Source: Eledone cirrhosa (Eukaryota). From it: a DNA stretch of 64,000 nt. Location of the stretch: positions 283,774,001 through 283,838,000 of the forward strand of contig OZ024743.1 in the NCBI GenBank assembly GCA_964016885.1, read 5' to 3'. A model generated the notes under the pieces. It was given only the letters and a program-made list of their open reading frames with translations, searched no databases and had not been told where the DNA came from. Positions 20,985-23,900 of this stretch are shown one piece after another. Made by a program: the position numbers and the translations under genes. The stretch's first letter is position 1. Every line of letters begins with the position of its first letter.

Positions 20985-23900
20985 TAATAATAATAATAAT
21001 AATGAAATTATTGTGTACAGTGCTCAGGTGCACTACAACTCATCAAAGGTGCATGTATAGTACATAGAATAATGTACAAATGTCAAGAAAATGAACAGTG
21101 TATGAGTCATGATATAATAACAATAACAATAATGAAATATTGTGTACAGTGCCCAGGTGCACCACAACTCATCAAAAAAGTGCATGTACAGTACATAGGG
21201 CAATGCACAAACATCAGTAAAATGAACAGTGCACGAGTCATGATACACACATGTGTGCATGTGTATGGAAGGGGTACATCAGGTGTAGTTTTGGCGTATT
21301 TCGGGAAGCATGAGTGTCTTAAAGGATGCAGTGTCTCGGCAGCTAACAATTGACGCAGGCAGTTTGTTCCATGCTTCAGCAACTCTGAGCGTGAAAAAAT
21401 GTCTGCGAAAGTCATGGGAGCTGTGCTGTTTTCTTATCTTGTAGGCATGTCCATGTGTGTTAGACACATGGAGATCAAAGAGGCGCTCAGGGTTGCAGTT
21501 GGCGAGATGGTTAAAAACTTTGTGGGTATTCACCAAGTCCATTGCCAGACGTCGGAGCTTCAATGAATCCATGCCCAGGGAGGCAAGGCGTTCAGAGTAT
21601 GGTAGGTGTCTGATGGAGGGTATGCGCTTGGTTGCACGTCTCTGAGCAGTTTCCAGGAGGTCAATGTTCCGAGCAAGATAGGGGTTCCAGACTGATGATG
21701 CGAATTCCAAGTGTGGTCGCACCATAGCTGTATACAGTTTTAAATAGATGGCTGGAGAGCGGCTAACAAAGGTTTTGCTGAGTGATGCCAAGACACCCTC
21801 GGCCTTCTTGACAATCTTAGAGACATGCTTTGTCCAACGCAAATCGTTGCTGACAGTAATGCCCAGGTCACGTTCACAAGAGGACTTTTTCATGTCAGTG
21901 TTGTGGAGGGAGTATGTGGACGCTGGATTTTTCCTTCCAAAATGCATGGTGGTACACTTGTCCACAGCCAGCTTCAGTTGCCAGTCTGTGATCCATTGCT
22001 GCATTGTGTCCAGTTCTGACTGTAGGAAAGAGTTCTAAATTTCAGGATCAGTCCTTTTGATTTCAAGGTACAGCTTGATGTCATCTGCATATTTTAGTAC
22101 CGTCGCATTCTGTAAGTTGGCATCTATGTCATTAATATATGCCACAAACAAAAGAGGACCAAGAACAGATCCCTGTGGTACACCAGATGACATCTCATAT
22201 GGTGAAGAATGCTGTCCTAGAACCGTGACTACTTCCTTTCGGCTGAGAATGAAGGATTTCAGCCAGTCGAAAAGATCATCCCTCACACCCATTGCAGAGA
22301 GTTTTGCCATAAGTCTTTTGTGTGGCACAGAATTAAAAGCCTTAGCAAAGTCAAGGTAAACAACATCCACCCATGAGCCGCTGTCAGTGATCCGGGTGAT
22401 GTCCTCAAGGAACTCGATAAGCTGATCACAGCAGCTGGAGTTAGGGATAAATCCAAACTGTGAGGGCCGGATGAGGTTGTGAGAGCTCCAGAAGTTCCAA
22501 AGTGTTTCTCTGACACAGGATTCCATCAGTTTGGCCATACAGCTAGTAAGACTGACTGGACGATAGTTGACAGGTGACATGCGGTTGCCCTTTTTGAACA
22601 GGGGAATGACACTGGCAGTTTCCCACTGCTCCGGAGTAGCACCATTGCTGAGACAGTATTGAAAGAAAAAAGAAAGCTGGCGCAAAAGGAAATCCCCGCC
22701 ACGTTTGAGAAGCAGGTATGTCACACCATCAAGACCAGGGGAGGCATAGTTGCGCTTATTCTTAAGGTGACGTCGCAACATTGCAGGTGTAAATTCCTTA
22801 GTTGTTATGGAATTTGATGTTAGAGATGGTGGAGATGCTACATTCTGGTTTTCAACCGTAAAAATACTTGCATAGCACTCAGCAATGAGTTCTGCGCATT
22901 CCTTGGGATCGTCAGTGATCTGGCTTGTGTGAGGATTGCGAAGAGGACCAACTGGAGAGTGAGGTCTCTGCTTTGAATGAACATATTTCCAGAACACCTT
23001 ACTGTCAGGATTGGTTGCGATGCACTGTTCAAATTCAAGCACTGCCTTCTTTGTCACTTGCTTGAGATGGTTAGAAGATTTATTCCGCTTTTTTTTGTTG
23101 GCATCTGATCTATGCAGTTTATATTCCCGTTCAGCGTTCCGACGTTCTTTCCTGGCAAGTCGGACCGCTGAAGTTTCCCAGATTGCACTTTTGGGGTGGT
23201 TATTTTTCCACTTCCGTGGCACTGATGCTGCACACGCTATCCATATTGAGTCCAGGATGCTCTGGAGTATAGAGTTCACATCTCCAGAGTTATACATCTC
23301 ATGCCAGTTTAGGCGCTGTAGCTCAGTGCAGTACAAGTTCCAATCCGCCCTCTTCCAATCAAAGCAAGCAGATTGGAGATGGCTCTGGTTTTTGTTGCTG
23401 CCCTCAAGTGCCAGATTGGCAATGATCATAGCATGATCAGAGTCGCCTAGAGGTTCCTCAGTAGTACAACTGATAACCACTTCAGGAGTAGTGGTGAAGA
23501 TCAGGTCCAAAGTGTTGTCACCTCTTGTTGGAGAGGTGACTACTTGTGACCAGTTTGAGTCCAGCACTAGTTCAAGGAAATCGTTTGCACCCTGTGGCCA
23601 ACGAAAGGTTTCCCAATCGATCTCAGGATGATTGAAGTCACCTGCAATAAACACATAAGTGGCTGTTTTCTTGGCAGCAACTCTGAGGATATCGCAAAGC
23701 TGTGTGTCCTGATGGTAGTTTGGGGGGGGGGGGGGGGGGGGCGATAAACAACACCAAGCAGAAGTGTTGACATGGTCATACGTATGTCACAGAAAAAAAC
23801 TTCTTCCTGTGATTCGTTCAAATCAACGCAAGGAATTACCGAAAAGTTTGAACGAACATAGACCATCACACCACCACCACGGCGGTTAATACGGTCCTTG

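What the first reader, a model, noticed from the sequence alone, without database searches (positions are those of the whole stretch)
20985..21290. CR1 LINE with a duplicated 3' end whose inner copy looks A-to-I hyper-edited (fossil ADAR editing, rescued by a fresh 3' end)
Seen: the element ends in two ~130-bp tandem units, each with its own tail (outer 20985-21115, inner 21116-21246). Aligned by eye, 9 of about 14 substitutions are T>C on + (A>G in LINE sense), and none is C>T. The inner tail reads ATTGTTATTGTT instead of (ATT)n, adding 2 more. About 8 of these 11 sites are in sense UA context. The sister subfamily (19200-19320, 62500-62620) has A at these sites, which polarises the change as A>G. 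Two changes hit the 3' stem-loop GTAGTGC-ACCTGA-GCAC. Established: ADARs prefer a 5' U and disfavour a 5' G; inosine is reverse-transcribed as G; CR1/L2-type LINEs need their 3' stem-loop and tail; coleoid cephalopods edit very heavily. Inference: an edited LINE RNA was retrotransposed, its 3' recognition signal was damaged, and a new lineage arose by appending an unedited 3' end.
Basis: partly seen in the sequence, partly recalled or inferred. Interest (0 to 1): 0.82.

Follow-up and report, generated by a model that had tools for sequence, protein, structure and literature searches.

The report
RNA-edited LINE founded a young subfamily
In an octopus-type genome, more than a thousand young copies of a jumping gene share a tight cluster of seven A-to-G changes, likely left by the RNA-editing enzyme ADAR on their founder's RNA before it was copied into inherited DNA; they also carry a second tail end borrowed from a sister family, but nothing shows that this extra end rescued the edited one.

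Summary
The double 3' end and the one-way A>G skew are real. The outer unit is not a duplicate of the inner one: it comes from a sister subfamily (O). The inner unit's true parent (P*) is still in the genome. Against P*, the oldest double-ended copies differ by 7 A>G in 82 nt and by no other fixed change over 1,587 columns. At least 1,320 copies carry the edited stem. Four other family copies show their own sense-strand A>G bursts; two T>C control patterns found none. Private mutations are strand-symmetric, so this is not drift. Best reading: ADAR edited a LINE RNA, it retrotransposed, and it founded an active lineage (about 0.75 for that step). Corrections: the two tail Gs arose later, and the UA bias of the founder alone is weak (p=0.07). 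'Rescue' is not shown: the edited hairpin still folds, stem-edited terminal ends did insert, unedited double ends arose independently at least four times, and the order of events is unresolved. No RNA reads could test editing. This scan has already noted ADAR-type edited retrocopies on other DNA, in this genome and others.

The parts
20983..24930 (-). Young CR1-type LINE copy of the double-ended subfamily D; 5' end approximate
   Evidence: Endonuclease and RT domains; family alignments reach about 24840-24930; nearest 40 genomic copies 99% identical over 21250-21600
20983..21112 (-). Outer 3' unit with (ATT)n tail, captured from sister subfamily O, unedited
   Evidence: 94-98% identical to the 3' ends of single-ended copies whose bodies are only about 75-88% identical to D
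21010..21039 (-). Terminal stem-loop of the outer unit; inferred recognition signal for reverse transcription
   Evidence: Predicted hairpin, z=-2.05; function inferred from UnaL2/ZfL2 (PMC4176376, PMC1636434, passages)
21112..21116 (-). Junction of inner tail and outer unit, with 3-nt microhomology
   Evidence: Sequence; the same or a nearly identical join recurs in independent tandem ends L009, L010, L011, L370
21113..21134 (-). Inner tail; its two Gs (21127, 21121) are later additions
   Evidence: 128 junctions with a pure ATT start; G in 108 of 137 and 80 of 138 copies
21153..21234 (-). Founder A>G cluster: 21234, 21206, 21201, 21189, 21183, 21163, 21153 (7 of 19 adenosines in 82 nt)
   Evidence: Column majorities of 20 P* vs 33 early D copies; 6 vs 14 long copies
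21139..21168 (-). Inner stem-loop: one stem A-U turned G-U (21163), last loop base changed (21153)
   Evidence: Folds of natural parent and edited copies, -8.4 vs -9.3 kcal/mol, hairpin kept
21279..24166 (-). ORF2 in three pieces in this copy (a stop near 22035, a frame break near 23600-23790)
   Evidence: ORF list; Pfam RVT_1, Exo_endo_phos, Exo_endo_phos_2; best named homologue from Octopus sinensis, 75% identical
48851..52395 (-). Second double-ended D copy in the window
   Evidence: 98.5% identical over 3,563 nt; both units present
18215..19331 (+). Single-ended O-type sister copy (outgroup)
   Evidence: 87.5% identical to D; body differences symmetric
62492..62705 (-). Short single-ended O-type sister copy

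Best explanation
The young double-ended subfamily differs from its surviving single-ended parent by seven A-to-G changes packed into 82 bases, which were likely made by ADAR on one LINE RNA that was then reverse-transcribed into germ-line DNA. Shown: the cluster, its direction, its confinement, the foreign origin of the outer unit, and that 97 of 100 sampled copies include the outer unit. Inferred: the parent's 3' unit was double-stranded, through its own long imperfect hairpin or an antisense copy of this roughly 12,800-copy end; inosine was read as G. The O-type end was likely joined at the ATT tail through a 3-nt microhomology, probably by a template jump during reverse transcription or by insertion into the tail, a process that recurs in this family without editing. 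The outer end would then prime later insertions, leaving the inner unit free to collect further A>G changes.
For: P* (20 copies) vs early D (33): 8 differing columns of 1,587, all A>G, 7 in the unit and 1 polymorphic in P*. Long copies: no difference in the 2.0 kb from 21404 to 23403. A tree of 38 bodies intermingles P* and early D, with old P and O outside. Only 12 of 49 lineage-level body changes are A>G, so 7 of 7 has p about 5e-5; 7 of 8 inside the unit has p about 2e-7 (both post hoc). Two sites left free in a pattern: about 56 AA, 42 GG, 2 mixed of 100 listed (counted from the listing). Independent sense-strand bursts: L407 (7 A>G, 1 T>C in the outer unit), L408 (4 of 6 private changes), L410 (16 of 20), L444 (9 of 13, 9 of 12, 7 of 9 in three segments). 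A>G-forcing patterns hit 4 loci, T>C controls 0. Pooled 5' neighbours edited: U 16/43, A 7/28, C 3/61, G 2/28, p=1e-5 (4 U sites forced by the pattern). After the burst, 6 of 10 shared derived changes in inner unit plus tail are A>G vs 16 of 94 in the body, p=0.006. Parent 3' UTR folds into a long hairpin covering all seven sites, z=-3.0 and -2.7. A_deamin genes present.
Against: No RNA reads, so editing is not observed. Seven sites are few; founder UA bias alone p=0.067; one site has the disfavoured 5' G. Three of the seven sites are unpaired in the predicted hairpin, and no antisense partner was identified. G at 21183 also occurs in O and could be a conversion; G at 21234 and 21206 recurs in some non-D units. 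4 vs 0 alone is p=0.06. A scan of 541 segments (292 kb) found no private A>G cluster but 3 C>T, 1 G>A and 1 T>C, so bursts are rare. L213 has only the four upstream edits, which may mean two steps. Template jump and tail insertion could not be told apart. The P* group included two doubtful members (L140, L208).
Confidence: 0.65

Rival explanations
1. The reader's rescue (compatible with editing, differs on cause): editing crippled the 3' signal, the edited copy was nearly inactive, and gaining an unedited end revived it.
For: No unedited inner unit among 67 D-lineage junctions with a pure tail. Only 3 of 100 sampled edited-stem copies lack the outer unit within about 10 kb. One edit changes a loop base, and the loop sets specificity in ZfL2 (PMC4176376, passages). 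L235 is single-ended, early-type and fully edited. L407, L408 and L410 have no A>G in the terminal stem-loop.
Against: The hairpin still folds. L442, L443 and L444 end in a stem with two A>G changes and inserted (the pattern fixed the loop A, so loop edits were not tested). Unedited tandem ends arose in L009, L010, L011/L195/L220 and L370. L213 is double-ended with an unedited inner stem-loop, which would put appending first. Use of the outer end is expected from position alone. L263 and L272 carry late D states yet end at the inner tail, so it may still prime.
Confidence: 0.25
2. A DNA-level or polymerase-level burst: an error-prone patch by a Pol eta-like enzyme (A>G at WA, recalled) or misincorporation by the LINE's reverse transcriptase under low dTTP.
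For: The same U/A 5' preference is expected of Pol eta (recalled). Three edited sites are predicted unpaired. No RNA evidence.
Against: All five bursts are A>G in LINE sense, none T>C in two controls; a DNA patch has no strand reason. 7 of 19 adenosines with no other error far exceeds recalled Pol eta error rates. RT error under pool imbalance gives no evident reason for a bounded tract or for sparing CA sites.
Confidence: 0.12
3. Ordinary drift in a 3' unit released from selection, or plain subfamily divergence.
For: Inner vs outer identity (86%) matches body divergence between D and O (87.5%); later A>G steps did accumulate gradually.
Against: No time for drift: parent and daughter bodies have no fixed difference over 2 kb. 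Private changes are symmetric, A>G 1.38 vs T>C 1.30 per 1,000. Intermediates are nearly absent.
Confidence: 0.04
4. Recombination patch from an unsampled G-rich relative.
For: The family is mosaic and inner/outer conversions occur (L062, L140, L389).
Against: The patch keeps every other P* state and differs only by A>G, so the donor would itself be a burst product; none was found among the loci held.
Confidence: 0.05

Closest known systems
ADAR-linked A-to-G hyperediting of avian retroviruses RAV-1 and avian leukosis virus (Felder 1994; Hajjar and Linial 1995; seen only as cited in passages of PMC8586724)
   Same: Clustered A>G, attributed to ADAR, recorded in DNA after reverse transcription.
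   Different: Here a non-LTR retrotransposon in an invertebrate germ line; the edited copy founded a lineage of over 1,300 copies with its parent still present.
APOBEC 'DNA-edited' LTR retrotransposons (PMC4866542, PMC2873906; passages)
   Same: One-type mismatch clusters fixed in genomic retroelement copies and polarised against sister copies.
   Different: G>A on cDNA by cytidine deaminases, LTR elements only; that signal was at noise level in 19 invertebrate genomes.
ADAR1 restriction of human L1 (PMC5224506, passages); ADAR2 paper PMC8677026 (search listing only)
   Same: ADAR binds LINE RNP.
   Different: No editing was detected in over 2.5 kb of L1 RNA and restriction was mainly editing-independent; here edits appear fixed in DNA.
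A-to-I editing of repeat-derived RNA in coleoids (PMC9068888, passages)
   Same: Most untranslated-region edits overlap repeats; ADARs are broadly transcribed.
   Different: RNA level only; no write-back to the genome in the passages read.
Stringent LINE 3' ends, UnaL2 and ZfL2-1/2 (PMC1636434, PMC4176376; passages)
   Same: Stem-loop plus short terminal repeat; template slippage at the repeat.
   Different: L2 clade, assayed; the requirement is only inferred here, and no tandem two-subfamily 3' end appears in the passages read.

Membership tests
ADAR hyper-edited RNA product | Cluster of one mismatch type, A>G | tested here: met
   7 of 7 in 82 nt
ADAR hyper-edited RNA product | On the transcribed strand | tested here: met
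   Founder and four further bursts all in LINE sense; two T>C controls empty; small numbers
ADAR hyper-edited RNA product | 5' U/A preferred, 5' G disfavoured | tested here: met
   Pooled p=1e-5 (partly forced by the search pattern); founder alone inconclusive, p=0.067
ADAR hyper-edited RNA product | Double-stranded substrate | tested here: inconclusive
   Predicted parent hairpin z about -3 spans the tract, but 3 of 7 sites unpaired; founder locus unknown
ADAR hyper-edited RNA product | Inosine or RNA-DNA A>G mismatch seen in RNA | not testable with these tools
   No raw or stranded RNA reads were offered
ADAR hyper-edited RNA product | Host has ADAR genes | tested here: met
   PF02137 matches in three clusters plus one lone exon; the family also covers ADAT1 (recalled); germ-line expression not tested
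CR1-clade LINE | APE endonuclease plus RT in ORF2 | tested here: met
CR1-clade LINE | 3' microsatellite tail and stem-loop instead of poly(A) | tested here: met
   (ATT)n tail and predicted hairpin
CR1-clade LINE | RT groups with reference CR1 rather than L2 or jockey | not tested
   No reference set on hand; homologues are named only 'jockey-like' or unnamed; the C-terminal motif resembles CR1 by recall
Stringent LINE | Retrotransposition needs the cognate stem-loop | not testable with these tools
   Needs an assay; stem-edited terminal ends exist
APOBEC DNA-edited retroelement | G>A clusters on the sense strand | tested here: not met
   0 G>A in the unit

The most novel reading that the evidence does not exclude
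ADAR editing is a recurring, heritable mutagen of an active LINE lineage: an edited RNA with a crippled 3' signal was copied only because reverse transcriptase jumped onto it from a sister element's intact end, creating in one step a chimera that spread to over 1,300 copies and whose spare inner end now records each later round of germ-line editing.
Probability: 0.25. Interest if true: 0.85.

Novelty: new variant of a known kind. Interest (0 to 1): 0.66.

Why it matters
RNA edits are normally transient. Here a parent, an edited daughter lineage and later sub-lineages all sit in one genome, so the event can be polarised base by base and placed in the family's history. If ADAR did it, editing in germ cells feeds heritable mutations into a mobile element that went on to amplify, rather than only restricting it. 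It also offers a natural set of 3'-end variants for testing how much of a CR1-type stem-loop the reverse transcriptase needs, and shows LINE subfamilies swapping 3' ends. Ten literature searches listed no paper that reports this for a LINE; the library lacks most subscription journals.

Tried and rejected
DNA search with the inner unit alone returned nothing, even its own locus: uninformative. No RNA holder was listed; four guessed-RNA runs were contigs of relatives with small shares and cannot show editing or expression. Thin cover of the inner unit in run X24 is not used as evidence of age. Ongoing editing as a general background: rejected, private A>G equals T>C (one search agrees, though its grouping pooled O, P and outer units). 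Local cluster scan of 541 segments: no A>G burst. A single-ended edited subfamily: of 9 apparent cases 5 had the outer unit behind an insertion in the inner tail; 4 lack it within about 10 kb; target-site duplications were not resolved. Inverted partner: within 1.5 kb only L409 of 7 loci has one; these are landing sites, not source loci. A 5'-truncation hot spot at the junction could not be judged because outer units swamp that bin. The D2 grouping was empty (bad criterion). L409, L442 and L443 show only the changes forced by the pattern and are not counted as bursts. One further pattern search for double edits was not run, so burst counts are lower bounds. No supplements were read.

Full report
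Observation. The element lies on the minus strand from about 24930 to 20983 and encodes an endonuclease and reverse transcriptase, in pieces in this copy. Its best named homologues are Octopus proteins, 74-75% identical, and the genome has 3.0 Gb, so an octopod host is inferred. It ends in two units. Outer to inner, in LINE sense, there are 10 A>G, 0 G>A, 3 T>C, 2 C>T and 1 C>A. All 30 nearest young copies share the double end; an edited-stem 24-mer has 1,320 exact matches and a family-wide motif 12,783. A contig from another study spans 21019-21330 with one difference (run type not on record).

The outer unit is 94-98% identical to the ends of single-ended copies (O) whose bodies are only about 75-88% identical to this element, so it was captured, not duplicated. 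A second single-ended subfamily, P (1,476 motif matches), shares the inner unit's T>C states and indels. Within it, P* has the same body as the oldest double-ended copies. A tree of 38 bodies gives O, then old P, then P* mixed with early D, then late D.

The founding event. Column majorities of 20 P* and 33 early D copies differ at 8 of 1,587 columns, all A>G: seven at 21234, 21206, 21201, 21189, 21183, 21163, 21153, and one at 21403 that is polymorphic in P*. Six against 14 long copies give the same seven, no difference from 21404 to 23403, and nine columns further upstream, at low coverage and mostly mixed within a group (3,401 columns). Lineage-level body changes are balanced (12 A>G, 12 G>A of 49), as are the body differences to the window's O copy and private changes in 154 D copies. 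Of those 154 (selected for at least 4 G), 131 carry all seven; 68 of 77 P-type units carry none. With two sites left free, about 98 of 100 listed matches were AA or GG. So the seven arose together or in very few steps. The C>A, the extra T and the tail Gs are later.

Is it ADAR? Seven of 19 adenosines changed; 5 of 8 after U, 1 of 7 after C, 1 of 4 after G (p=0.067). The parent 3' UTR folds into a long imperfect hairpin that spans the tract (z=-3.0, -2.7), but three edited sites are unpaired in it, so a longer duplex with an antisense copy is the likelier substrate (inference). Earlier scan notes on edited retrocopies (unchecked) prompted a search for independent bursts. A scan of 541 segments in hand found none. 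Patterns forcing two or three A>G hit 4 loci, matched T>C patterns none. L407 has 7 A>G and 1 T>C in its outer unit, L408 4 of 6 private changes, L410 16 of 20 over 285 nt; L409 has only the forced two. A further pattern (no control) gave L444, edited across three units. Pooled neighbours favour U and A over C and G (p=1e-5, partly forced), close to the ADAR rule in PMC8586724 (passages: 5' G disfavoured), though the strong avoidance of C is not in that passage. A_deamin genes are present. RNA could not be tested. I put about 0.75 on ADAR; the main rival is an error-prone polymerase with a similar context (recalled), which does not explain the strand.

How the second end came, and whether it rescued. 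The join shares three bases between the ATT tail and the O unit, and nearly the same join recurs in unedited tandem ends at L009, L010, L011/L195/L220 and L370. Appending is thus a habit of this family, by template jump (slippage at the terminal repeat is described for UnaL2, PMC1636434, passages) or by insertion into the tail, which other elements also use. Among 76 pure-tail junctions examined at 69 loci, 66 inner units had 4-7 G, one had 2, six were array hybrids, one lacked an inner unit, and two were the unrelated L370 pair: no unedited D-lineage double end. Of 100 sampled edited stems, 93 had the outer unit adjacent, 4 had it behind an insertion, 3 lacked it. This fits edit-first or one step, but position alone predicts outer priming. 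The edited hairpin still folds (-9.3 vs -8.4 kcal/mol); three terminal ends with two stem A>G inserted; the loop change, the likelier damaging one by analogy with ZfL2 (PMC4176376, passages), was not tested. L213 (double-ended, early, inner stem-loop unedited) suggests appending came first; L235 (single-ended, early, fully edited) suggests the reverse. Either could be a recombinant or an internal-priming product. Rescue: about 0.25. After the event the inner unit and tail kept gaining A>G (6 of 10 shared changes vs 16 of 94 in the body, p=0.006; tail sites may not be independent), as expected of a spare end.

Comparison with what is known. It works like ADAR hypermutation recorded in avian proviruses (cited in PMC8586724) and parallels APOBEC-edited LTR elements (PMC4866542, PMC2873906, passages). 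For human L1, editing was looked for and not found (PMC5224506, passages). Coleoid editing of repeats is described at RNA level (PMC9068888, passages); an Octopus vulgaris repeat survey lists recently active CR1 families and does not contain the word editing (PMC13282606, passages). Ten searches listed no report of an ADAR-edited LINE fixed in a genome. This scan has noted such copies repeatedly in this and other genomes, including two edited founders of families (unchecked notes). What this case adds is a surviving parent for exact polarisation, a lineage with a captured second end, and continued gain of A>G.

Verdict. Observation confirmed; editing likely; duplication wrong; rescue unproven. 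New variant of a known kind, interest 0.66.

Noticed in passing
L391, L397, L398 (outer unit about 5.9 kb downstream), L392 (1.6 kb), L279: The inner ATT tail is a target for other insertions: in three copies about 5.9 kb separates inner tail and outer unit (two start with the same sequence); in one an RT-like fragment ending in a (GAT)n run.
   Followed up: partly
L011, L195, L220: A second multi-copy double-ended lineage with the opposite order (O-type inner, P-type outer) and no edits: a natural control.
   Followed up: partly
L009, L010, L062, L389: Arrays of up to 8 tandem 3' units; in L062 and L389 the units are inner/outer hybrids, as unequal crossing-over would give.
   Followed up: partly
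L014, L015, L028: 61-nt tandem arrays within the last part of ORF2 in O-type copies.
   Followed up: no
window 21145 and 21169 equivalents: A D sub-lineage with a further A>G at 21145 has 475 exact matches; over half of the 100 listed also have A>G at 21169.
   Followed up: partly
L185: Single-ended P-type copy with A>G at two founder sites (21206, 21201) plus one more; independent edit or conversion.
   Followed up: no
window 33320-34183 and 38415-39968: Two ORFs with RT followed by a PHD finger: a different retroelement.
   Followed up: no
window 19770-19880 and 20130-20260: Two inverted pieces of a short repeat that also often follows this LINE's tail at other loci; probably a SINE.
   Followed up: no
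window 25820-26050: A coding-like exon just upstream of the LINE on the + strand; resembles an EDEM/GH47 mannosidase by recall, not tested.
   Followed up: no
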